Shown: piece after piece, positions 412 to 11,497 of the stretch
How positions within the stretch are numbered: position 1 is the first letter of the stretch
Layout: every line of letters starts with the position of its first letter
From: an uncultured Bacteriovorax sp.
GTDB taxonomy: Bacteria > Bdellovibrionota > Bacteriovoracia > Bacteriovoracales > Bacteriovoracaceae
Direction of reading: 5' to 3'
Length of the DNA: 64,000 nt
Assembly (NCBI GenBank): GCA_964593545.1
Contig: CAZQJK010000009.1
Span: forward strand, 17,505 to 81,504
Translations under genes and position numbers: made by a program
The notes under the pieces: model-generated
What the model was told of the DNA's origin: nothing
What the model saw: the letters and a program-made list of their open reading frames with translations, nothing else
The model's database searches: none

Positions 412-1359
412 ATGAAAGTTGTTAAAATACTTATCGCCCTTATAGCTCTATCTTCATTCGCCCAAGCGAAAGGACAAACAATGTGGGCGTCGATTCCATT
501 TATAAGAGGTGCTGATCTCTGTGCTTACAAGCAAGCTTATTCACAAACCCGCTCAGAATATATGGACGAAATGGTCGGTTTAGCTTCTGATCTTATGCAA
601 GCTGGAGCAAAGGGTAAGGAGGCTTTACAGATGCTTCAAACCTTTGATGCCATGTATGACAAAAACTTACGTATTGCAACTCAGTATAAGTATCTCGATG
701 TAACTTTAGAGAATACATTGAAAGCTTATCTTGATGGTTATTATAGAAGTTTTCCAGTATCGGATAGAAAATTTAGTTTTCGTCACATGAACGATATTAG
801 AAGAATTATCAATAATGCTTCAAACGATAGAAGAACAGGATACTTACCACCGAACTCATCTTCACTCGTTGACTACATCGCCTACGGAACCTATTCTTTT
901 GCACCAAACTGTAAAGGAAATATTCAAGTAACTCTTACAATGGTAGACAAGAATGGAATGACGACATCTTACCAAGGTATTGGCGCCCCAAGTGTTGTGA
1001 TGTCACAAATTGCATCAAGAATTTTTGAAGACTTTCAAGGGACTAAGTTTCCTAATACTATCTACGTTAATGGCTACAATCTTAAACTTGTAGGAACACA
1101 TAATGGATCAGTAGGAAAAGCGACAAGTATGAGACAAGCTGAGAATGCCTGTAAGAATAAACAAGCACGACTACCTTCTGCGAACGAACTTGAGGCAATT
1201 GATGCTTATGGTGACTGGAATGGAGGTGTATCAATTGGTAAAAGCGTTTGGGCGATTAGTGGCGGTATGGTATATCACCCAGGACTTATGAATCCAAGTC
1301 CGGTAAGATCTCCACATTCAATAAATGAAAAAGTATATTCTTATTACTGCGTAAAATAA
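412..1359 (+). CDS. Secreted hypothetical protein, C-terminal DUF1566/C-type-lectin-like motif
   Basis: Signal peptide, SD AGGAG; C-terminal AENACKNKQARLPSANEL...W...YYC pattern. Confidence 0.75.
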   Translation: MKVVKILIALIALSSFAQAKGQTMWASIPFIRGADLCAYKQAYSQTRSEYMDEMVGLASDLMQAGAKGKEALQMLQTFDAMYDKNLRIATQYKYLDVTLENTLKAYLDGYYRSFPVSDRKFSFRHMNDIRRIINNASNDRRTGYLPPNSSSLVDYIAYGTYSFAPNCKGNIQVTLTMVDKNGMTTSYQGIGAPSVVMSQIASRIFEDFQGTKFPNTIYVNGYNLKLVGTHNGSVGKATSMRQAENACKNKQARLPSANELEAIDAYGDWNGGVSIGKSVWAISGGMVYHPGLMNPSPVRSPHSINEKVYSYYCVK

Positions 1360-3628: not shown

Positions 3629-3654
3629 ATAAAAAAGGGCCACAGAAGTGGCCC
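3629..3654 (-). terminator. Rho-independent terminator of peptide B
   Basis: GGGCCAC-N4-GTGGCCC stem followed by a T-run on the minus strand. Confidence 0.85.
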
Positions 3655-3663
3655 AGTATATTC

Positions 3664-3852
3664 TTACTTTGATCTTCCATTTTCGCTTTTGGCAGGCTCA
3701 GCTGTTCTTACATCTCCAGAAGACGGAAGCTGTTCCTGATATGCACTATCATGAACTGTTTTTTCGCAACTAACATCAGATTTCTCATCTAATGCAAATA
3801 CATTTGATACACTACATACTACTAAGATTGTTAAAATTAAAGCTTTCATCAT
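3664..3852 (-). CDS. Small secreted peptide B (62 aa)
   Basis: Signal peptide ending SNVFA, polar mature part with one Cys, SD AGGGGG, own terminator and sigma54-type promoter. Confidence 0.8.
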   Translation of the reverse strand: MMKALILTILVVCSVSNVFALDEKSDVSCEKTVHDSAYQEQLPSSGDVRTAEPAKSENGRSK

Positions 3853-3892
3853 ATCCCCCTGATATTAATGTTAGGTTGTTTGTTATTTATAT

Positions 3893-3909
3893 TGCACAGA
3901 CCATGCCAA
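3893..3909 (-). promoter_or_regulatory. sigma54 (-24/-12) promoter for peptide B
   Basis: Minus strand TTGGCATGGTCTGTGCA: GG-N10-GC. Confidence 0.65.
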
Positions 3910-4026
3910 ATGATTTCACTTCTAGAGAAAGTGATTTTAGATACTTACCATCAAGAAGAGAGAGTAATTCTGTATATTTTTTAGTCACTGAATATTATTT
4001 TTACAGATTTAGCTAGATTAATTGAC

Positions 4027-4055
4027 AAAAAAAAAAGCCCGATATTATCGGGCTT
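4027..4055 (-). terminator. Rho-independent terminator of peptide C / RHS transcript
   Basis: AAGCCCGAT-N3-ATCGGGCTT followed by a long T-run on the minus strand. Confidence 0.88.
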
Positions 4056-4083
4056 AATTATTTAAAATAAATTTTAACAAAAG

Positions 4084-4281
4084 TTATTTCTTTGTTGAGG
4101 TACTTGTTCCAGCACTTTCTGTGGTCGTATCTGTCGCTGTAGTTGACTTACAAGTACCATCCTTACAACCTGAGATATTTGTACAGCTATCTGCACCACT
4201 TTGCTCGCCTACGCTTACGTCAGAAGCAAGAGTAATATTTAATGAGCTTAATATCGTTAGTAGCAATAGTATTTTCTTCAT
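4084..4281 (-). CDS. Small secreted peptide C (65 aa), positional analogue of Bd0108 (hit)
   Basis: Signal peptide, three Cys, Thr/Ser-rich tail, SD AGGAG; directly downstream of the RHS gene. Confidence 0.8.
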   Translation of the reverse strand: MKKILLLLTILSSLNITLASDVSVGEQSGADSCTNISGCKDGTCKSTTATDTTTESAGTSTSTKK

Positions 4282-4384
4282 TTCGATCTCCTATAGAGGG
4301 TATTTTATCATATAATGGTTAATCACCAACAATCACTTAGTATTTCAGCTTTTCAGGGTCTTAACCTGCCACTGAAAGTTGTCA

Positions 4385-6013
4385 CTACATATTTAAGTTA
4401 ACACCTGCAGGCTTAACAATCGATAATAATGACTGAAATGCTTGCGTTACCTGTAATGCCATTTTATGCCCTGCTTTCGATTCTACCTTTAGAATTTCAC
4501 CGTAGTTATCGTATTTAACATTAATTTTTCCGATGTTCTTCATTGAAATCTCAACAGGCTTTCCTTGAGCATTATAAATAAAGCTCAATTCACGCTTTTT
4601 GTTTGTTGATTTATCAAAGTCGTACATATTTGAAATTCGACCTTTTGAATCATAAGTTAAAAGTACTGACATATTTTTTGAATTCTCAGCTCTTTTCAAA
4701 TTACCTTTCTTATCATATTCAAATTTAGTCCAACCATTATTATTCGACACATTTGTAATCTTGTTAAACTCTGGGTGATACTTAAGTTCAACATAGTCTC
4801 CTCTTGAAGAATTTTTCTTAACAAGAAGCCCTTTGCTATTATATTCAAAATTTGTAACGAAGTTACCTCTTTTGATTTGCTTAGGTAATGAACAACACTC
4901 AGTATAGATAGTCTCAGTAGAAACATTATTTACGACAGTTAAAATTCTGTAAGTATAATGTGATCCATCTGGCTTTCTCTTAATTTCATACTCATAACGG
5001 TTTGTTACATCTTTCCCACCAGGGTTTTTCTTAGTAACTAGTGTCCAGTAATGAAACTCTGGGTTCTTTGGATTAGATTCATATTGATAAGCAACTGACT
5101 CACCATTTTTCTTTGTAACTTCTTCAACGAATTGTGTTTTCTTTGTATACTTAATCTTCATTGCTGAACCATCTTTGTAATTGATAGCAAGCATATTATG
5201 ATTGTGATCATAGTCGTACTTAAAAACATTTCCAGCAATATCTTTTGCTTCGATTAAATCGTCTTCTTTGTAAACGTACTCTGTTTTCTTTCCAGCACCA
5301 GATTCTACAGATTTAATTTTTCCATCTGGGTACCACTGAAAGAATATTTGTTTTGCCATTGAATCTTTAATAGATTTAAGGTTATTTCCTGAATAGTTTA
5401 GGTCTACAACGTATCCATTTTTATCTGTAATTTTAGTAAGCTTACCATCGTCGTTGAACAAATGCTCCTTACCATCATTATATTTTCTAGAGTATCCATC
5501 TTTAGTCTTAACAACTTTCTGAAGACCTCTTTCATTTGAATACAATTCTGAACCAACAGCTAATTTTGCAGAAACATCAAATCTCTTTGCATAGGCTTGT
5601 CTTAATTCTGCATCATTTGTCAGTTTTGTAATCAATGAACTTGCAACAGTTTCAGAAATCGAATTCTTTTTTCTCATTGCATCGATAATTTTCTTTGCAG
5701 CAGCTTCAGCATCAACAGACTTATTCGGTACAAATCTTGTTTTAGCTCCAGATCCATTTTCGTGTATCACAACAGAACCATCCGCCGATACATTCAAATA
5801 TGTCTCATAGTCAGATCCCCATCCAAAACCAAACCAACCTTTATCGGGTGATCTTGAGTTATAGGTTCTCTCAATAATGAGATCATGCCCACCACCTGGT
5901 ACAACAATATCCGTATAAGTGATATGGAAGTTACCATTCTTTAGATTAACGCCTGCAAATGCGCTTGATGCAAAAATACATAATAGTACAAAAAATTTAA
6001 AATTCTTCATCAC
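4385..6013 (-). CDS. Secreted YD-repeat/RHS protein with DUF6531-like N-terminus (Bd0109-like)
   Basis: Signal peptide, GVNLKNGNF...RTYNS...FGFGW, repeated YxYD/FEYD strands; no toxin tip. Confidence 0.9.
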   Translation of the reverse strand: MMKNFKFFVLLCIFASSAFAGVNLKNGNFHITYTDIVVPGGGHDLIIERTYNSRSPDKGWFGFGWGSDYETYLNVSADGSVVIHENGSGAKTRFVPNKSVDAEAAAKKIIDAMRKKNSISETVASSLITKLTNDAELRQAYAKRFDVSAKLAVGSELYSNERGLQKVVKTKDGYSRKYNDGKEHLFNDDGKLTKITDKNGYVVDLNYSGNNLKSIKDSMAKQIFFQWYPDGKIKSVESGAGKKTEYVYKEDDLIEAKDIAGNVFKYDYDHNHNMLAINYKDGSAMKIKYTKKTQFVEEVTKKNGESVAYQYESNPKNPEFHYWTLVTKKNPGGKDVTNRYEYEIKRKPDGSHYTYRILTVVNNVSTETIYTECCSLPKQIKRGNFVTNFEYNSKGLLVKKNSSRGDYVELKYHPEFNKITNVSNNNGWTKFEYDKKGNLKRAENSKNMSVLLTYDSKGRISNMYDFDKSTNKKRELSFIYNAQGKPVEISMKNIGKINVKYDNYGEILKVESKAGHKMALQVTQAFQSLLSIVKPAGVNLNM

Positions 6014-6053: not shown

Positions 6054-6080
6054 TTATCGGGAAAGTCTAAAAAAACCTTA
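6054..6080 (-). promoter_or_regulatory. sigma28 (FliA) promoter for the RHS gene
   Basis: TAAGGTTT-N11-CCCGATAA vs consensus TAAAGTTT-N11-GCCGATAA; overlaps the tadB stop. Confidence 0.75.
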
Positions 6081-6968
6081 ATCTTTAATTTGAACAATTT
6101 TAAAAATTACCATGGTTCCAACAATATCTAGTACTGTAGCCACGATAAAGAGTAGAATTCCCACAGGATGGCTAAACATTCTCTCTATTGCCTCAGGATC
6201 ACTGGAGCCATACATAATCAGTATTCCGTATGGCATTGCGGCCATAATCATACCCTGAAAACGTCCTTGTGCCGTTGCAGTGTCGATCTTCTGTTTTAAT
6301 CTTACACGTTCTCTAATAACATCAACAATTGTATCAAAAACCTCTGCAAGATTTCCCCCTGTTTCCCTTAATATATTAACGGAACTAACGAACATATCGT
6401 TATCCTGAGTAGGGACACGTTTCGCCAAATTCTCGAAACACTCTTCCAAAGGAACACCAATTCTATTTTGCTGTAACATGACATTAAACTCTTGTGATAA
6501 TGGTGCCGGCATTTCATCAACGACCATCCCAATTGACTGAGGGACACTCAATCCTGCACGTAACCCATTTGCTAAAAGAGTAAGGCCATCAACCATTTGT
6601 AATTCGTATTCCTTAACCCTCTTTGCAACGAAGTAATTAATAATTGGTCTCGGTAATTTAAACCCAATAAACGCAAAGATTATTCCGAGAACAAAGCCTA
6701 ATACCCATTTGCCAAGCAAACCGAAGATAATAATTATTATCGCTGCTGAACCAAATGATAATCCAAGTAGCCCATATGTTATTTTTTCTGGGGCAATCTC
6801 AATGAAGAGAAGATCTAATTTCTCTAGAATATATGTTCTTGTTCCCATCGTTTGTTTTTCGATGAAATCGAAAATACCGACCGAGTACTTATAGCAAAAT
6901 GCAAAAAGAACTACTCCAATAAGAATTACGAGACCGTTAAAACCAATAAGGCTAAGAAAAAATGACAT
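6078..6968 (-). CDS. tadB: TadB inner-membrane platform protein (T2SS F family)
   Basis: LANGLRAGLS, QNRIGVP, ETGGNLAEV motifs; follows the Tad ATPase. Confidence 0.88.
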   Translation of the reverse strand: MSFFLSLIGFNGLVILIGVVLFAFCYKYSVGIFDFIEKQTMGTRTYILEKLDLLFIEIAPEKITYGLLGLSFGSAAIIIIIFGLLGKWVLGFVLGIIFAFIGFKLPRPIINYFVAKRVKEYELQMVDGLTLLANGLRAGLSVPQSIGMVVDEMPAPLSQEFNVMLQQNRIGVPLEECFENLAKRVPTQDNDMFVSSVNILRETGGNLAEVFDTIVDVIRERVRLKQKIDTATAQGRFQGMIMAAMPYGILIMYGSSDPEAIERMFSHPVGILLFIVATVLDIVGTMVIFKIVQIKD

Positions 6969-6975
6969 AACTCAT

Positions 6976-9207
6976 TTACTCCTTTTTCACTGGTTTCCCA
7001 GTTGGTCTTTGAGGACGGTTCCCAGGTGGTTGTCCTGGTCTTGTACCGCTTGGTGCTGGCGGTCTCGCCGCTTGTGGTGGTTGAGAAGCCTGAGATGTAT
7101 TACTAAAAAGCCCTCGAGGAACATTGTATCCCTTCTTTTCTAAAGTCTCGATAAACTTAGGAATAAAACCAGTGGCCTGATATTCTCCAACAATTTTTCC
7201 AGATTTATCAATTCCTTTTTGGACATAGAGAAAGATATCTTGCAATGTAACAACCTCTCCTTGTATCCCACCTATTTCAGTGATGTGTGTAATACGTCTT
7301 GATCCATCATCTAATCTCTGTTGCTGTATAATTAAATGAACGGCTGAAGCAATCATTTCTCTAATCGCTTTTGGAGTAAGCCCTGCTCCCGCATATTGCA
7401 CAAGTGTTTCGATACGCCAGATACACTCTCGAGGATTATTTGAGTGAACCGTTGTTAAGGAGCCATCGTGTCCAGTTCCCATTGCTTGTAACATATCAAG
7501 TGTTTCACCACCACGACACTCACCCACAACAATTCTGTCCGGTCTCATTCTTAGACACTGCTTAACTAATAAGCGAATATCAATTTCACCATCTCCCTCA
7601 AGTGATGGTGGTCTTGTTTCAAGCCTAACCACGTGATCTTGAGGAAAATTAAGCTCAGCTGAATCTTCACAAGTAATGATACGTTCATTTGCCTGAATAA
7701 AACTTCCTAGAACATTAATCAAAGTTGTCTTACCTGAACCGGTACCACCAGAGACAATTATATTTCGGTGACCTTCAACAGCAATTCTTAAAAAATCTGC
7801 CATATTCTGTGTCATGGATCCAAACTTGACGAGGTCTTTATAAGTAAGGCGCTCCTCAGGAAATTTTCTAATTGTGATACAACATCCATCGATAGCAGAT
7901 GGAGGAATAATGGCATGAACTCTTGATCCATCATGGAGTCTAGCATCTACGTATGGTGTTTTTTCATCAATTCGTCTTCCAATCGGCGCAACGATTCTTT
8001 CAATAACATTGAGAACCTGACGATCATTTGTAAATATAACTTCAGACTTTCTAATTTTCCCACTTTTCTCAAAATATATTTTATCAGGTCCAACAACCAT
8101 AATTTCAGATACCGTTTTATCTGATAAAAGATCTTCCAAAGGACCAAGTCCTAATGCCTCATCGATAATTTCTTTAACGATCGCATTCATATCTTCTCGT
8201 GAATTTAATATGCCTTTCGTATCCTCTTTTCCGAGCAAATCAACAACAAGCTTCTTTGTTTTTTCTTTTAGAATAATTTTGGCTTTCGGATCATTTTTAT
8301 CATCATCACCGAGATCCATCTCCTCAACCAAACTCTTATGTATCCTAATTTTTAGATCTCGCCATGCATTTGCTGTTCCCTTAGAAGCTGTCGCTCCCGA
8401 GGCATCAGAACCTGTCTTATTAGTTGTTACACCACTTGGTCTATTTAGTGTTGAAAGTTGCTTTAAGATATTAGATTGAATAATCTTTCTTGCTACTTCA
8501 GTTATTCCTTTCGAGAAGTTACTATTTTTAAGTGCGACGAGAGCAGGCTTTCTTTGATTCAGGGCCATTGCACAAGTTTGATCATCTTTTACGATTGTTC
8601 CAAGTAATGGTCGTCCGAGAGTTTTAGAAACAACATCGGGTGTAACAGGATGACCTTTTTGAGCCTGATTCATTACAAAATGTATCATCTCTTTCGGGAA
8701 CATCATTGTTACTAAATCAGAAATCATTCTCTTCGTTTGATTAAGTACTAACAAGTCTGGCGTTACAACGATTAAAATCATTGTCGAGTACTCTAAAGCT
8801 TTTAGAGTTAAAGGACTTAATTCACTTCCCCCGTCAATCACTGTAATTGGAAAAAGTGATGAAAATGCTTTTAAATATTTTCCAGCTGCATCTGGATCTA
8901 ATCCATCAGTCACTGCTGGGTCATTGGGCAAGCCGATATAATTCACACCTGCTGGATGTGGATTTAAAAAAGGTGCTATAGTGCGAGGATCGATATTTCC
9001 GCTAAAAGCAAAAAGATCTTTCATATTTTTTTTCGACTTAATCCCTGTAATTAAATTTTGATCGCCACTTGCTCTTTGATCAAAATCTAAAAGAAGAGTT
9101 TTTCCTCGAGATTCAGCAACAAGTGAAAAAGCAAGGTTTGCAGCGACTTGAGATTTCCCAACCCCGCCTTTAGCACCGATAACTGTTATTATGTGACCTT
9201 CGGCCAT
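6976..9207 (-). CDS. tadA: TadZ/CpaE(MinD-like)-TadA/CpaF fusion ATPase
   Basis: N-terminal GAKGGVGKS deviant Walker A; C-terminal GGTGSGKTT, LRMRPDRIVVGECRG, TGHDGS. Confidence 0.9.
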   Translation of the reverse strand: MAEGHIITVIGAKGGVGKSQVAANLAFSLVAESRGKTLLLDFDQRASGDQNLITGIKSKKNMKDLFAFSGNIDPRTIAPFLNPHPAGVNYIGLPNDPAVTDGLDPDAAGKYLKAFSSLFPITVIDGGSELSPLTLKALEYSTMILIVVTPDLLVLNQTKRMISDLVTMMFPKEMIHFVMNQAQKGHPVTPDVVSKTLGRPLLGTIVKDDQTCAMALNQRKPALVALKNSNFSKGITEVARKIIQSNILKQLSTLNRPSGVTTNKTGSDASGATASKGTANAWRDLKIRIHKSLVEEMDLGDDDKNDPKAKIILKEKTKKLVVDLLGKEDTKGILNSREDMNAIVKEIIDEALGLGPLEDLLSDKTVSEIMVVGPDKIYFEKSGKIRKSEVIFTNDRQVLNVIERIVAPIGRRIDEKTPYVDARLHDGSRVHAIIPPSAIDGCCITIRKFPEERLTYKDLVKFGSMTQNMADFLRIAVEGHRNIIVSGGTGSGKTTLINVLGSFIQANERIITCEDSAELNFPQDHVVRLETRPPSLEGDGEIDIRLLVKQCLRMRPDRIVVGECRGGETLDMLQAMGTGHDGSLTTVHSNNPRECIWRIETLVQYAGAGLTPKAIREMIASAVHLIIQQQRLDDGSRRITHITEIGGIQGEVVTLQDIFLYVQKGIDKSGKIVGEYQATGFIPKFIETLEKKGYNVPRGLFSNTSQASQPPQAARPPAPSGTRPGQPPGNRPQRPTGKPVKKE

Positions 9208-10694
9208 TAAGGACCCCTCTTCCTAAACTTTCGTTTAATTTCTTCTGAACCAGCTGATGCACTATCAATAATCTCTGGTGTAATAAATACAACAAATTGC
9301 TCCTTACTACGGGACAATGACTTTGATTTTATGAAGGAGAACAACGGAAAACCAGAACCTGCTTCAACAGTATCTGCTCCACCAGGAGGATCTTTATCAT
9401 ATTGAGTAGAAGATTTAGTAGATGAAACTCCACCAACGACAGCAGACTCTCTTGTTTTTACAATTATAATCGTATTGATTGTATTCTCTAAAACATCTGT
9501 TCCGGAACCAAAACTAACTCCGAGAGAAATTTCGATATTTACTTTTTCTTCAGGCATGATTGTACCCTTAAGCTTTAAATCAAAACCTGCATCAATTGAT
9601 GTCGGTTGTTGAAACTCTCCAGTACCTAATGTTGTATTCTTCTTTGTCTTTCTTGTTATCGTCCCATTCTCGTTATCTTTAGCAATAATCATTCCGGACT
9701 GAACAATTCTTGCATACCCTGCAGCTTTTGCAGAATTTAACTTTGGAAATAGTTGTGAAATTGTCCCGGACAATGTTCCATCAGAGCTTGTTGATACGCC
9801 CCCCGAAGATGTTCGCCCAAATGAAATGCTTCCACCTTCTCCACCAAGAGTTGGATTCCATTTAAAACCAAATACTTTGTTATAGTCTTTTGTTAACTCA
9901 ACGAACTGTGCCGTAAACTTAATCATTTTAACAGGTTTTGGCGGTGGTTCAGTTTCATTGACGACAATAAAATTTTTAATAATTTCTTGCTCTAGCTTTT
10001 GGACCGAGTCAGTCCTTCTTGCTAAACTCTCAATTCTGTCTGGCAGATAAGTAATTCCAATTTTTGTCGCGAGTTCTTTTTCTTTTTCAGAACCAACGAT
10101 CCCTTCAAGGATATATGAATTATTAAAAAAGCGGACAGTTACATCTTTAAGATTATTTCTTCTCATCCCTTCTTGCATCTCTTTTGCAATTATTTGATAT
10201 GTCTGAGGAGAGACTTCGAGAAGATTTAAAACATCTTTATAGTCATCGAGAAAGAGAACAACTTTACCAATATCACTTGGGACAACAAGACGTCCTCCAA
10301 CAAAAACCTTGCCGCCTTTTATTCCGACCTCAACGCCCTCAATATCACTAAAGAAGTCTTTTAATTCATTAATAACCTTTGTCTTTTCCGTGGCAGTTAC
10401 TGTTACAAAGTATCGTATTGCGATATCTTTTGTTGCATCATTTCGCACTGATATTGATGAGACACCTGGCTTTAAGCCCTTTATTGTAATCTCTCTTTTT
10501 TGAGGAACAAAAGTCATGTCGACAACTGTATTATCTGCGATCTCTTTAATCGTTGTCGGTACAAAATCAAGTCGAATAACTTTATCTATCCCCATAAATA
10601 TTTCAATTCGCTCTTCCCTTGGGTTAACTTGCGCTATCCCATTCAGGCAAAAAAGAAACAAAAGAAATATTTTTACTGTATTTTTATTAATCAT
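9207..10694 (-). CDS. rcpA: Tad secretin RcpA/CpaC
   Basis: Signal peptide, BON-like segment, AQFVEL and VFITPEII secretin motifs, Tad context. Confidence 0.82.
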   Translation of the reverse strand: MINKNTVKIFLLFLFCLNGIAQVNPREERIEIFMGIDKVIRLDFVPTTIKEIADNTVVDMTFVPQKREITIKGLKPGVSSISVRNDATKDIAIRYFVTVTATEKTKVINELKDFFSDIEGVEVGIKGGKVFVGGRLVVPSDIGKVVLFLDDYKDVLNLLEVSPQTYQIIAKEMQEGMRRNNLKDVTVRFFNNSYILEGIVGSEKEKELATKIGITYLPDRIESLARRTDSVQKLEQEIIKNFIVVNETEPPPKPVKMIKFTAQFVELTKDYNKVFGFKWNPTLGGEGGSISFGRTSSGGVSTSSDGTLSGTISQLFPKLNSAKAAGYARIVQSGMIIAKDNENGTITRKTKKNTTLGTGEFQQPTSIDAGFDLKLKGTIMPEEKVNIEISLGVSFGSGTDVLENTINTIIIVKTRESAVVGGVSSTKSSTQYDKDPPGGADTVEAGSGFPLFSFIKSKSLSRSKEQFVVFITPEIIDSASAGSEEIKRKFRKRGP

Positions 10695-11497
10695 CTTTTC
10701 TCGTATTTATCTTGAAAGAATTTCTTAGCTTCAACCTGGTCTTTCTCACCTAGGATGTCATAAAGCCTTGTTCCTTCAATTCGAACTTTTTCTTTATCAT
10801 TAATATTTCTTAAAATTAGATAAGGAGTACTTTCACCATACTGATAAAGCCAAATTAATTTTTGTACTTCAAAAGGATCAAGCTCTAATGTTACAGAGTT
10901 GTAATTACTGTATGTATTTAACTTCATCTGTTTAATTACTTTGGGAGTTTGTACACCGATAACTGGTAAATTATTTGAGATATTTCTTCCTGTAGACAAT
11001 ACTCTTACGTCTTGTAAAATCGTCATAATCTTTTGTCGATCTCTTCGGCCGGAGTAATCGATAGCAGCAAGAACATCTACGCGATCACCTGGTTTGATGA
11101 GTTTTGATACTGATGTTTGGTCAGAAACAGTTATCGAAACCGCTCTCTTATTTACAGAAACTTCTCTTGATAAACCAGTGCTCTCTCCAGGATAAGTTAT
11201 CCTTGGCTTTGTAATTTGTTCATCTTTTAAAATAGGAACAGTTGCGATTGTGTTTTCTACTTCTTTCATCGTCTTAAAACTTCCTGGCGAGACGAAGCGT
11301 TGAGGTACTGAAATTATTGTTACTTTTGAATCATCAATTAATTCATATTCTCCAATATCTTTTTTCGCAACAATAACAGACGTCATTGAGCCGTATCTTT
11401 TTACTAATTCAGTTTTTTGATCTTCTACGTATGTGTGAACCATAAACATCGCAAAGATTGCTATCACAAGTGCTAAGGTAAATGCTCTAGTATTCAT
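10691..11497 (-). CDS. cpaB: Flp pilus assembly protein CpaB/RcpC
   Basis: SAF domain VIVAKKDI; RAVSI, IKPGDRVDVL motifs. Confidence 0.9.
   Translation of the reverse strand: MNTRAFTLALVIAIFAMFMVHTYVEDQKTELVKRYGSMTSVIVAKKDIGEYELIDDSKVTIISVPQRFVSPGSFKTMKEVENTIATVPILKDEQITKPRITYPGESTGLSREVSVNKRAVSITVSDQTSVSKLIKPGDRVDVLAAIDYSGRRDRQKIMTILQDVRVLSTGRNISNNLPVIGVQTPKVIKQMKLNTYSNYNSVTLELDPFEVQKLIWLYQYGESTPYLILRNINDKEKVRIEGTRLYDILGEKDQVEAKKFFQDKYEKR

What the first reader, a model, noticed from the sequence alone, without database searches (positions are those of the whole stretch)
4385..6013. RHS protein ends with a copy of its own mature N-terminus (AGVNL) and has no toxin
Signal cleavage region AFA-GVNLKNG (5956-5942) recurs as KPAGVNLNM-stop (4408-4394). 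Codons differ at synonymous sites (GGC/GGT, AAT/AAC, CTA/TTA), so any conservation is at protein level. At about 520 aa the mature chain is well under half a classical Rhs core and lacks the DPxG cleavage motif and toxin tip. Inference: the tail, on an amphipathic helix, may compete with the N-terminal plug strand (self-gating) or swap strands to build an oligomeric shell.
Basis: partly seen in the sequence, partly recalled or inferred. Interest (0 to 1): 0.72.

Follow-up and report, generated by a model that had tools for sequence, protein, structure and literature searches.

The report
Toxin-less mini-RHS with conserved end motifs
This gene encodes the marine-predator version of Bd0109, a small exported RHS "cup" protein without a toxin that sits at the end of the predatory Tad pilus operon; both of its chain ends carry strongly conserved short motifs that look alike (GVNL), but the evidence says the front one is an ordinary structural strand and the back one a separate flexible docking tail, not a proven self-copy.

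Summary
The ORF 4385..6013(-) reads AFA|GVNLKNGN after its signal peptide and ends KPAGVNLNM-stop, with the stated synonymous codon differences. The mature overlap is only GVNL, because the Ala is the -1 residue of the signal peptide.

Both ends are under protein-level purifying selection. 119 of 120 close homologues keep both. About half of the 30-50% identical relatives keep the tail, and nearly all keep the N motif.

The protein is a full-length homologue (33% identity) of the Bdellovibrio bacteriovorus hit-locus RHS protein family (Bd0109), in the same operon position. That Bd0109 lacks protease and toxin was published in 2014.

The N motif is the first strand of the DUF6531 plug. It lies in the register of the classical Rhs N-terminal autocleavage site x/PVxxxxGE, and here signal peptidase makes that end. 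It docks in the AlphaFold model of the mature chain and covaries strongly with core residues.

The tail stays disordered in the monomer model and covaries with nothing. It is kept in non-Tad gene contexts. In B. bacteriovorus it reads PATAELYL while the N end reads LVDMKNAN.

Self-gating or strand swapping is therefore not supported, though not excluded. A weak same-class concordance at position 3 exists (P about 0.01).

The parts
4385..6013 (-). Whole ORF: exported toxin-less mini-RHS protein. It is 542 aa from GTG 6013, or 541 aa from ATG 6010 (= P0001). Residue numbers below use the 541-aa form.
   Evidence: Full-length 33% identity (E 3e-100) to the B. bacteriovorus rhs-family protein P0476.
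5954..6010 (-). Sec signal peptide (residues 1-19, MKNFKFFVLLCIFASSAFA), with an AxA cleavage site directly before G20.
   Evidence: Read from the sequence. A small -1/-3 pattern sits directly before the motif in 115/120 close and 128/136 distant homologues. No signal-peptide predictor was available.
5927..5953 (-). N-terminal motif GVNLKNGNF: the first strand and turn of the plug domain, and the new N-terminus after signal-peptidase cleavage.
   Evidence: V21, K24, N25, G26 and N27 are invariant in 67 sequences. It is in the register of E. coli RhsA GH|PVNPLLGAK and of x/PVxxxxGE (PMC11461821). It is ordered only in the mature-chain model. Covariation with columns 65, 85 and 323 reaches z 8-10.
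5726..5953 (-). DUF6531 N-terminal plug domain (residues 20-95).
   Evidence: Pfam PF20148, E 1.7e-14. In Tse5 this domain is the N-terminal plug and starts at the autocleavage site (PMC10684867).
5582..5710 (-). Three-helix insert between plug and shell (residues 101-143).
   Evidence: AlphaFold secondary structure: H101-115, H120-131, H134-143, pLDDT about 90.
4478..5548 (-). YD/RHS-repeat beta shell of about 28 strands, i.e. 14 hairpins (residues 155-511). This is about one layer of a classical three-layer cocoon.
   Evidence: Pfam RHS_repeat and TIGR01643. AlphaFold strands. Foldseek top hits are all Rhs, teneurin or Tc cocoons at E 1e-22 to 1e-10, but with TM only 0.2-0.4.
4415..4468 (-). 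Amphipathic C-terminal helix (residues 515-532, HKMALQVTQAFQSLLSIV).
   Evidence: AlphaFold H515-532, pLDDT about 75-79. It covaries with the last shell strands (449, 488, 505-509).
4388..4414 (-). C-terminal tail KPAGVNLNM-COOH. Family consensus: (K/R)-P-A-G-V-(N/S/D)-L-(N/S/G)-(M/L/F/I)-stop. The stop codon is 4385-4387.
   Evidence: P534, A535, G536 and V537 are invariant in 67 sequences. The exact pattern ending the chain is found in 119/120 close and 62/136 distant homologues. pLDDT is below 50 in both models. Synonymous sites vary freely.
6078..11497 (-). Upstream genes of the same operon: a single TadB/C-type platform protein (6078-6968), a CpaE/TadZ-CpaF fusion ATPase (6976-9207), the secretin (9207-10694) and RcpC/CpaB (10691-11497).
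   Evidence: Pfam. The same order is seen in 24/24 related Bacteriovoracia loci and in Bdellovibrionales loci L026-L028.
3637..4281 (-). Two small Sec-signal, Cys-containing, low-complexity peptides downstream (4084-4281, 65 aa; 3664-3852, 62 aa). Each is followed by an intrinsic terminator (4055-4035 and 3654-3637). They are positional analogues of Bd0108.
   Evidence: One to three such peptides lie downstream of the RHS gene in nearly all related loci, and a 92-aa ORF does so in Bdellovibrionales loci. No sequence homology to Bd0108 was tested.

Best explanation
The gene encodes the Halobacteriovorax/Bacteriovoracia orthologue of the Bd0109 family. This is a Sec-exported, toxin-less, single-layer RHS 'cup' encoded as the last large gene of the predatory Tad (hit/Kil-like) pilus operon, followed by small secreted Cys-containing peptides.

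Anatomy: signal peptide, DUF6531 plug, three-helix insert, about 14 YD hairpins, an amphipathic helix, and a 9-residue tail.

The two look-alike ends have different jobs.

(1) N motif. GVNLKNGN is the canonical first strand of the plug. It lies in the same register as the N-terminal autocleavage site of T6SS Rhs proteins (x/PVxxxxGE), with the catalytic Glu replaced by Asn. In this family signal peptidase I, not autoproteolysis, creates the free N-terminus, which then tucks into the fold. The register, the docking in the model and the strong intramolecular covariation are shown. Cleavage by signal peptidase is inferred.

(2) Tail. (K/R)PAGVxLx-hydrophobic-COOH is an independently conserved short linear motif. 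It has alternating hydrophobic residues at a fixed distance from the free carboxylate, and it is flexible in the isolated monomer. It most likely works as a beta-strand docking peptide that adds to a partner surface. Because the tail is kept where the gene is not next to Tad genes, the partner is more likely intrinsic to the family (another copy of the protein) or a general envelope component than a Tad-specific protein. This step is inferred.

The four-residue identity between the ends is real in this clade. It is best read as two constrained V-polar-L strands rather than a demonstrated self-mimic.
For: Identity and context:
- Pfam DUF6531 and RHS repeats only.
- 945 homologues of constant length, about 541 aa.
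- 33% identity over the full length to the B. bacteriovorus rhs-family protein.
- RcpC-secretin-CpaE/F-TadB-RHS-small peptides in 24/24 loci and in Bdellovibrionales.
- No DPxG.

N motif:
- RhsA PVNPLLG..TDIALPG against GVNLKNG..TDIVVPG.
- The classical cleavage register is given in PMC11461821, and the plug starts at the cleavage site in PMC10684867.
- pLDDT rises from below 50 (with signal peptide) to 85 (mature chain).
- Covariation z is 8-10 with columns 65, 85 and 323.
- The signal-peptidase-like site lies exactly one residue before the Val in 243/256 homologues.

Tail:
- It is invariant in close relatives, and the chain ends exactly four residues after the Val.
- Selection acts at protein level.
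- pLDDT is below 50 in both models.
- No covariation exceeds z 4, and none is with the N-motif pocket.
- The tail is retained next to nSTAND/WD40/caspase-type genes without Tad genes.
Against: - No partner was identified, and no oligomer or complex prediction could be run, so the docking role is inference from conservation plus disorder.
- About half of the distant relatives lack the exact tail, so it is not essential to the fold.
- The tail window is the best match in the whole profile to the N window. Position 3 shows same-class residues in three clades (N/N, S/S-T, D/D-E) with a tree-simulation P about 0.01. A Pro at N-motif position 4 goes with loss of the tail (2/19 against 168/197). These points fit a real functional link between the ends better than pure coincidence.
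- Signal-peptide cleavage was not predicted with a dedicated tool.
Confidence: 0.5

Rival explanations
1. One reading: the tail is a functional mimic or partner of the N-terminal strand. Either it competes with that strand for the same groove (self-gating of the cup), or the two ends zip together in trans so that several half- or third-size cups assemble into a closed shell.
For: - The tail is the top-scoring match to the N window in the family profile (z 4.4).
- Both motifs sit at fixed distances from the free chain ends.
- Position 3 shows class concordance across three clades, and three same-branch N-to-S changes occur at both ends (P about 0.01).
- Pro at N-motif position 4 is associated with tail loss.
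- The tail is kept in unrelated gene contexts, which points to an intrinsic role.
- V. parahaemolyticus RhsP is deposited in a dimeric post-autoproteolysis form according to the PDB entry names of 8h8a/8h8c.
Against: - AlphaFold docks the N strand intramolecularly and leaves the tail disordered.
- There is no covariation between the motifs beyond clade structure (22-538 z -0.4, rank 195/540).
- The tail does not covary with the pocket columns that track the N motif.
- B. bacteriovorus proteins read LVDM.. at the N end and ..PATAELYL at the C end.
- Pro at position 4 arose only about five times, with mixed tail outcomes.
Confidence: 0.2
2. The tail is a recognition peptide for general envelope machinery. 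Candidates are a class-II PDZ-type ligand (hydrophobic-x-hydrophobic-COOH) for a periplasmic PDZ protease or sensor, or a beta-signal-like strand (Gly at -5, hydrophobic residues at -2 and 0) that adds to an outer-membrane barrel such as the secretin or BamA. The likeness to the N end is then coincidental.
For: - The pattern G-V-x-L-x-(M/L/F/I)-COOH has a strictly terminal position.
- The terminal residue is Phe in the Myxococcota-type clade (GVSLSF).
- The tail is disordered in the monomer.
- It is retained across gene contexts.
- The comparison with PDZ and beta-signal consensus rests on my own knowledge of those motifs, not on a test.
Against: - No PDZ protein or barrel partner is conserved next to the gene.
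- The terminal residue in this clade is Met or Leu, not aromatic.
- Pro rather than a polar residue sits at -7.
- Nothing was tested directly.
Confidence: 0.15
3. The tail is an evolutionary vestige of the junction to the lost C-terminal plug of classical Rhs proteins. It could correspond to the R-(L/F)-P-G-Q start of the RHS-associated core, or to a degenerate DPxGL cleavage site with Lys or Arg replacing the catalytic Asp. It would be kept only because it caps the last helix.
For: - hhalign places ..SLLSIVKPAGVNLNM on RhsA ..QLIRLPGQQYDE.
- KPAGV is the only xPxG[LVI] in the protein, and the chain stops four residues later.
- The spacing of 23 residues from the conserved (D/E)510 to K533 equals the D1141-D1164 spacing of Tse5 (PMC10684867). 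This is my own count on the sequence.
Against: - The hhalign match is weak (probability 1.3%, E 0.04) and is anchored on a generic YD repeat.
- A family C-terminal profile finds only YD repeats in solved Rhs structures, not their C-plugs.
- NCBIfam finds no RHS-associated core.
- A mere vestige would not keep the last four residues and the exact chain end under such strict selection.
Confidence: 0.1

Closest known systems
Bd0109 of the Bdellovibrio bacteriovorus hit (host-interaction) locus (Capeness et al. 2013, PMC3818213; Prehna et al. 2014, PMC4267844)
   Same: - Signal peptide, then an N-terminal domain, then about 13-14 YD repeats, about 550 aa, with no protease or toxin.
- Last large gene of a Tad-type pilus cluster, followed by a small secreted protein.
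- 33% identity over the full length to the B. bacteriovorus rhs-family protein P0476.
- Identical gene order in Bdellovibrionales loci.
   Different: - The B. bacteriovorus proteins start LVDMKNAN and end PATAELYL, so the literal GVNL repeat is specific to Bacteriovoracia and some other clades.
- The downstream peptides here (65 and 62 aa) show no detected similarity to Bd0108.
- That P0476 is Bd0109 itself is inferred from its organism, length and 'rhs family' name, not verified.
Classical Rhs/YD polymorphic toxins (T6SS Rhs such as Tse5, RhsA, Rhs1, Tse15, RhsP; Tc toxin TcB/TcC; WapA)
   Same: - DUF6531 N-terminal plug.
- YD-hairpin spiral sheet.
- A free N-terminus one residue before a conserved Val or Ile, with Gly five residues later (x/PVxxxxGE register).
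   Different: - About 14 hairpins instead of about 40.
- No DPxGx18-19DPxG aspartyl-protease plug, no C-terminal toxin and no immunity gene.
- The N-terminus is made by signal peptidase, with Asn in place of the catalytic Glu.
- It ends in a helix plus a conserved 9-residue tail.
Terminal beta-strand docking systems (donor-strand complementation in chaperone-usher pili, 'velcro' closure of beta-propellers, C-terminal PDZ ligands, OMP beta-signals)
   Same: A short, strictly terminal peptide with alternating hydrophobic residues that is unstructured on its own and conserved.
   Different: This is a resemblance only. No partner, groove or strand insertion has been shown for this family.

Membership tests
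Bd0109-type toxin-less mini-RHS (hit-locus RHS) | Sec signal peptide, DUF6531, YD repeats, about 540-550 aa, chain ends without protease or toxin | tested here: met
   The family length is constant over 270 or more homologues.
Bd0109-type toxin-less mini-RHS (hit-locus RHS) | Full-length sequence homology to the B. bacteriovorus protein | tested here: met
   BLASTP against P0476 (B. bacteriovorus 'rhs family', 551 aa): 33% identity over 552 columns, E 3e-100. The identity of P0476 with Bd0109 is inferred.
Bd0109-type toxin-less mini-RHS (hit-locus RHS) | Encoded directly after the Tad/Flp pilus genes and followed by a small secreted protein | tested here: met
   Window. 24/24 Bacteriovoracia loci. 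Bdellovibrionales loci L026-L028.
Bd0109-type toxin-less mini-RHS (hit-locus RHS) | Binds the small disordered partner (Bd0108) and is essential for viability | not testable with these tools
   Literature only (PMC3818213, PMC4267844). Those experiments used C-terminally His-tagged or mTFP-fused Bd0109, which masks the conserved tail.
Classical Rhs polymorphic toxin | DUF6531 N-terminal plug and YD-repeat shell | tested here: met
   Pfam. Foldseek hits to Rhs cocoons at E 1e-22. The shell is only about one third of full length.
Classical Rhs polymorphic toxin | C-terminal aspartyl-protease plug DPxGx18-19DPxG (RHS-associated core) | tested here: not met
   No DPxG in the protein. No TIGR03696 or PF03527 hit. 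The C-terminal profile does not hit C-plugs of solved Rhs structures.
Classical Rhs polymorphic toxin | Variable C-terminal toxin domain with a downstream immunity gene | tested here: not met
   The chain ends nine residues after the last helix. The downstream ORFs are small secreted peptides.
Classical Rhs polymorphic toxin | N-terminal autocleavage at x/PVxxxxGE with a catalytic Glu | tested here: not met
   The register is kept (A|GVNLKNGN), but Glu is replaced by Asn (N27, 96%) and the site coincides with a signal-peptidase site. The motif definition is taken from PMC11461821.
C-terminal PDZ ligand / OMP beta-signal | Hydrophobic-x-hydrophobic-COOH at the very end, with Gly at -5 and an aromatic last residue for beta-signals | tested here: inconclusive
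   The pattern is present (G-V-x-L-x-M/L/F/I-COOH). The last residue is aromatic only in some clades. No partner was tested.

The most novel reading that the evidence does not exclude
The two ends are a matched pair. The free C-terminal strand of one cup zips onto the free N-terminal strand (V-N-L against V-N-L) of another. Several one-layer RHS cups would then assemble into a closed, toxin-less cage that holds or releases the small disordered hit-locus peptides as a signal, giving a multi-subunit Rhs container used for signalling rather than toxin delivery.
Probability: 0.12. Interest if true: 0.8.

Novelty: new member of a known kind. Interest (0 to 1): 0.42.

Why it matters
Bd0109 appears essential in Bdellovibrio: attempts to delete it failed (PMC3818213). 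It sits at the centre of the long-unsolved hit-locus switch between predatory and prey-independent growth, yet its mechanism and structure are unknown.

Three points from this work are directly usable.
- The mature N-terminus is the exact counterpart of the end made by autocleavage in classical Rhs proteins. Constructs must therefore start at that residue.
- The family carries a strictly terminal, strongly conserved C-terminal tail. The published binding work used C-terminal tags (LEHHHHHH, mTFP) that would mask it. This may bear on the weak affinity reported (45 uM).
- The same mini-RHS, with both motifs, occurs outside predators' pilus operons, next to STAND/WD40/caspase-type genes. This argues for a general extracytoplasmic receptor or container role rather than a pilus-only role.

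If the ends really pair, this would be a new way of building Rhs shells.

Tried and rejected
- Direct coevolution of the two motifs. MI with APC on 254 and then 374 full-length homologues (Neff 188 and 245) gave z -0.65 and -0.39 for the position-3 pair, with at most z 2.6-2.8 for other pairs. Rejected as evidence.
- Shared pocket. The tail columns do not covary with columns 65, 85, 323, 294 or 304, which track the N motif.
- Apparent tail couplings to 276, 407, 451 and 488 turned out to be markers of the Bdellovibrio clade. They do not differ between tail-bearing and tail-less proteins.
- Vestige of the classical C-plug. The family C-terminal profile against PDB sequences hit only YD repeats. 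hhalign against an enterobacterial Rhs C-plug alignment gave probability 1.3%. That alignment has low diversity because the search returned mostly E. coli and Salmonella fragments.
- DNA-level explanation (repeat for recombination, RNA element). Rejected, because synonymous sites are saturated while the residues are fixed.
- Lipoprotein. Cys12 is not in a lipobox and is not conserved.
- Tad-specific partner for the tail. Weakened by retention of the tail in non-Tad contexts.
- A shuffle test in Python timed out and was replaced by an analytic estimate.
- Model coordinates are not returned by the tools, so contacts of the termini in the models could not be measured.
Full report
**What is in the sequence**

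The ORF 4385..6013 on the minus strand encodes 542 aa from GTG 6013, or 541 aa from ATG 6010. Residue numbers below use the 541-aa form. After a typical signal peptide (MKNFKFFVLLCIFASSAFA) the chain continues GVNLKNGNFHITYTD. It ends ...QAFQSLLSIVKPAGVNLNM-stop.

The Ala at the N end is the -1 residue of the AxA signal-peptidase site. The mature protein therefore shares four residues with the tail, GVNL, not five.

For a single protein, a shared 4-mer between the first and last ten residues is expected about once in a thousand. On its own this is weak after multiple testing over a whole window.

**Conservation**

A search of 5.8 billion proteins gave 945 homologues. The best 120 have 59-82% identity and nearly all are 540-545 aa. 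They come from Halobacteriovorax, Bacteriovoracaceae and other Bdellovibrionota.
- 119 of the 120 end in P-[AS]-G-[VIL]-x-hydrophobic-x-hydrophobic-stop. The exception is a truncated entry.
- All 120 carry x-V-x4-G-N directly after a signal-peptidase-like site.

Among 136 full-length cluster representatives at 30-50% identity:
- 130 keep the N motif, 128 of them directly after an AxA-like site.
- 62 keep the exact tail and 85 keep a looser version.

In 24+ related loci the third codon positions of both motifs vary freely while the residues stay fixed. Selection therefore acts on the protein, not on a DNA or RNA element.

In a weighted family profile, the tail window 536-539 is the best match in the entire protein to the N-terminal window. 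Its score is 8.08 against 3.31 for the next best, z 4.4.

**What the protein is**

Pfam finds DUF6531 (residues 22-90) and RHS repeats. NCBIfam finds YD repeats and only a fragmentary match to the RHS core. There is no DPxG motif and no C-terminal domain.

AlphaFold2 with a 67-sequence alignment gives a confident model (pLDDT 87). It shows a plug domain, three helices (101-143), about 28 strands or 14 hairpins (155-511), a helix (515-532) and a tail. Foldseek matches only Rhs, teneurin and Tc cocoons (E down to 2e-22), but with TM scores of 0.2-0.4, as expected for a shell about one third the length of a classical one. Tse5 has 40 hairpins (PMC10684867).

The gene is the last large gene of a Tad-type operon: RcpC, secretin, a CpaE/TadZ-CpaF fusion ATPase, a single TadB/C platform protein, then the RHS gene. 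The same order occurs in 24 of 24 related Bacteriovoracia loci and in Bdellovibrionales loci, where Flp pilin and prepilin peptidase genes are also seen upstream.

One to three small Sec-signal, Cys-containing, low-complexity peptides follow the RHS gene almost everywhere. In the window these are 4084-4281 and 3664-3852. Each is followed by an intrinsic terminator, and there is none between the RHS stop and the first peptide.

This is the architecture of the Bdellovibrio hit locus (bd0108/bd0109; PMC3818213). The window protein is 33% identical over its full length (E 3e-100) to the B. bacteriovorus 'rhs family' protein P0476. That Bd0109 lacks the protease and the variable toxin domain was stated by Prehna et al. 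2014 (PMC4267844). The 'no toxin' half of the finding is therefore already known.

**The N-terminal motif**

E. coli RhsA reads ...GH PVNPLLGAKVLPGETDIALPG..., which lines up with A|GVNLKNGNFHITYTDIVVPG. Val, Asn, the Gly five residues later and the TDI..PG block all correspond.

In T6SS Rhs proteins the N-terminal autocleavage occurs at x/PVxxxxGE, or at x/(S/N)Ix4G(T/A)E in Acinetobacter, with a required Glu (PMC11461821). In Tse5 the DUF6531 plug begins exactly at the cleavage site K47|P48 (PMC10684867).

Here the signal-peptidase site falls in that same register, and the Glu position is Asn (96% conserved). So in this family signal peptidase appears to make the free N-terminus that classical Rhs proteins make by autoproteolysis.

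Two results show that this end is a structural part of the fold:
- With the signal peptide attached, residues 12-23 have pLDDT below 50. In the mature-chain model the first ten residues average pLDDT 85 and Val2 forms a beta bridge.
- Columns 20, 22 and 23 covary with core columns 65, 85, 323, 294, 304 and 409 at z 6-10. These are among the strongest pairs in the protein.

**The C-terminal tail**

In both models the last seven residues have pLDDT below 50, with block means of 27-31. No tail column covaries with anything above z 4. The few couplings seen (276, 407, 451, 488) are markers of the Bdellovibrio clade and do not differ between tail-bearing and tail-less proteins. The helix before the tail covaries with the last shell strands.

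The chain ends exactly four residues after the conserved Val in most members, and the last residue is Met, Leu, Phe or Ile. A conserved, strictly terminal peptide that is flexible on its own and has alternating hydrophobic residues is what one expects of a docking strand.

One rare relative (P0152, 838 aa) carries a degenerate tail internally, followed by extra domains.

**Is the tail a copy of the N end in a functional sense?**

Against:
- The position-3 pair (22-538) has MI-APC z of -0.65 (254 sequences) and -0.39 (374 sequences).
- Column 538 ranks only 195th of 540 among partners of column 22, so about a third of all columns track the N motif better.
- The tail does not covary with the pocket columns of the N motif.
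- B. bacteriovorus proteins read A|LVDMKNANY and ...IIAPATAELYL, so the literal copy is absent in the type organism.

For:
- Residues at position 3 fall in the same class in three clades: N with N in 131/184, S with S/T in 19/38, and D with D/E in 89/123.
- A rough tree-based simulation gives P about 0.01, and three N-to-S changes occur on the same branches at both ends.
- Pro at N-motif position 4 goes with loss of the canonical tail (2/19 against 168/197). However, there are only about five origins, with mixed outcomes.

I conclude that a functional link between the ends is possible but not shown.

**Where else the family occurs**

Members from Myxococcota-type and other bacteria keep both motifs, for example A|NVSLKNGNFF with ...RPAGVSLSF, and GVNLKNGNFY with ...KPAGVNLSM. 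Yet they lie next to nSTAND1/WD40/TPR giants, caspase-like C14 peptidases and, in L039, a CHASE2 gene.

A clade with N motif GVNPKNGN has a decayed tail and lies beside OmpA-like, CHAT/CHASE2 or uncharacterised genes.

Retention of the tail without adjacent Tad genes argues against a strictly Tad-specific partner. These organisms may still have Tad/Kil systems elsewhere in the genome.

**Origin of the tail**

A profile of the family's last 75 residues hits only YD repeats in solved Rhs structures. hhalign against an alignment of enterobacterial Rhs C-plugs places ...SLLSIVKPAGVNLNM on ...QLIRLPGQQYDE, the start of the RHS-associated core. The probability is only 1.3% and the match is anchored on a generic YD repeat. 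A vestigial origin can be neither shown nor excluded.

**Literature check**

Full-text searches for Bd0109, DUF6531 and PVxxxxGE found no description of the terminal motifs. Attempts to delete bd0109 failed, and the authors propose that it is essential. The recombinant Bd0109 used for binding studies carried a C-terminal LEHHHHHH tag, and the localisation construct a C-terminal mTFP. Both would mask the conserved tail.

**Verdict**

The gene is a new member of the known Bd0109 kind. The 'no toxin' point is already published.

The N motif is explained: it is the plug's first strand, with signal peptidase taking the place of autocleavage. The tail is a newly noticed, conserved terminal motif of unknown partner. 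The self-gating or strand-swap idea is not supported by the tests available here, but it remains testable.

Noticed in passing
window 4084-4281(-) and 3664-3852(-); terminators 4055-4035 and 3654-3637(-): Two small Sec-signal peptides (65 and 62 aa) with Cys motifs and low-complexity polar tails lie downstream of the RHS gene. Each is followed by an intrinsic terminator. Related loci carry 1-3 such peptides, with recurring motifs such as G-E-x-G-E-D-x-K-G-D-C..S.Q.SR and C-G..S-T-C-G-E-C. They look like positional analogues of the disordered switch protein Bd0108.
   Followed up: partly
window 6976-9207(-) and 6078-6968(-): The pilus ATPase is a fusion of a ParA/MinD-like (CpaE/TadZ-type) domain with CpaF/TadA. 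It has a Pro/Gln-rich C-terminal tail. Only one T2SSF platform gene is present instead of the usual TadB plus TadC pair. The fusion is conserved in all related loci (710-743 aa).
   Followed up: partly
window 4892-4897(-) (Cys372-Cys373 of the 541-aa protein, YTECCSLP): A vicinal Cys-Cys pair is invariant in 67/67 sequences aligned from the close homologue set, but occurs in only about 21 of 134 distant relatives. It could form a vicinal disulfide or exchange with the Cys motifs of the downstream peptides. Published Bd0108-Bd0109 binding was measured in reducing buffer.
   Followed up: partly
loci L025, L029/L030, L037/L038, L039/L040, L041/L042: Outside Bdellovibrionota the same mini-RHS family lies next to nSTAND1/WD40/TPR giant proteins, Ser/Thr kinase, caspase-like C14 peptidases, CHAT and CHASE2 genes. 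The loci with the canonical tail are L025, L029/L030, L039/L040 and L041/L042. In the CHAT/CHASE2 locus L037/L038 the tail is decayed. This is a second, unexplained gene context of conflict or signalling type.
   Followed up: partly
P0033: A 67% identical homologue is labelled as a protein of the alga Chrysoparadoxa australica, on a 3.2-kb contig. This is most likely bacterial contamination of a eukaryotic assembly.
   Followed up: no
L021 3688-5321 (Bacteriovorax sp. DB6_IX) and L020 3960-5618: In these two loci the RHS gene is split into two ORFs. This is either a frameshift or pseudogene, or an assembly error.
   Followed up: no
window 4350-4378: A 7-bp inverted repeat (CTTTCAG ... CTGAAAG, 15-nt loop) lies just after the RHS stop codon, without a T-run. 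It could be a processing or attenuation hairpin between the RHS gene and the first small peptide.
   Followed up: no
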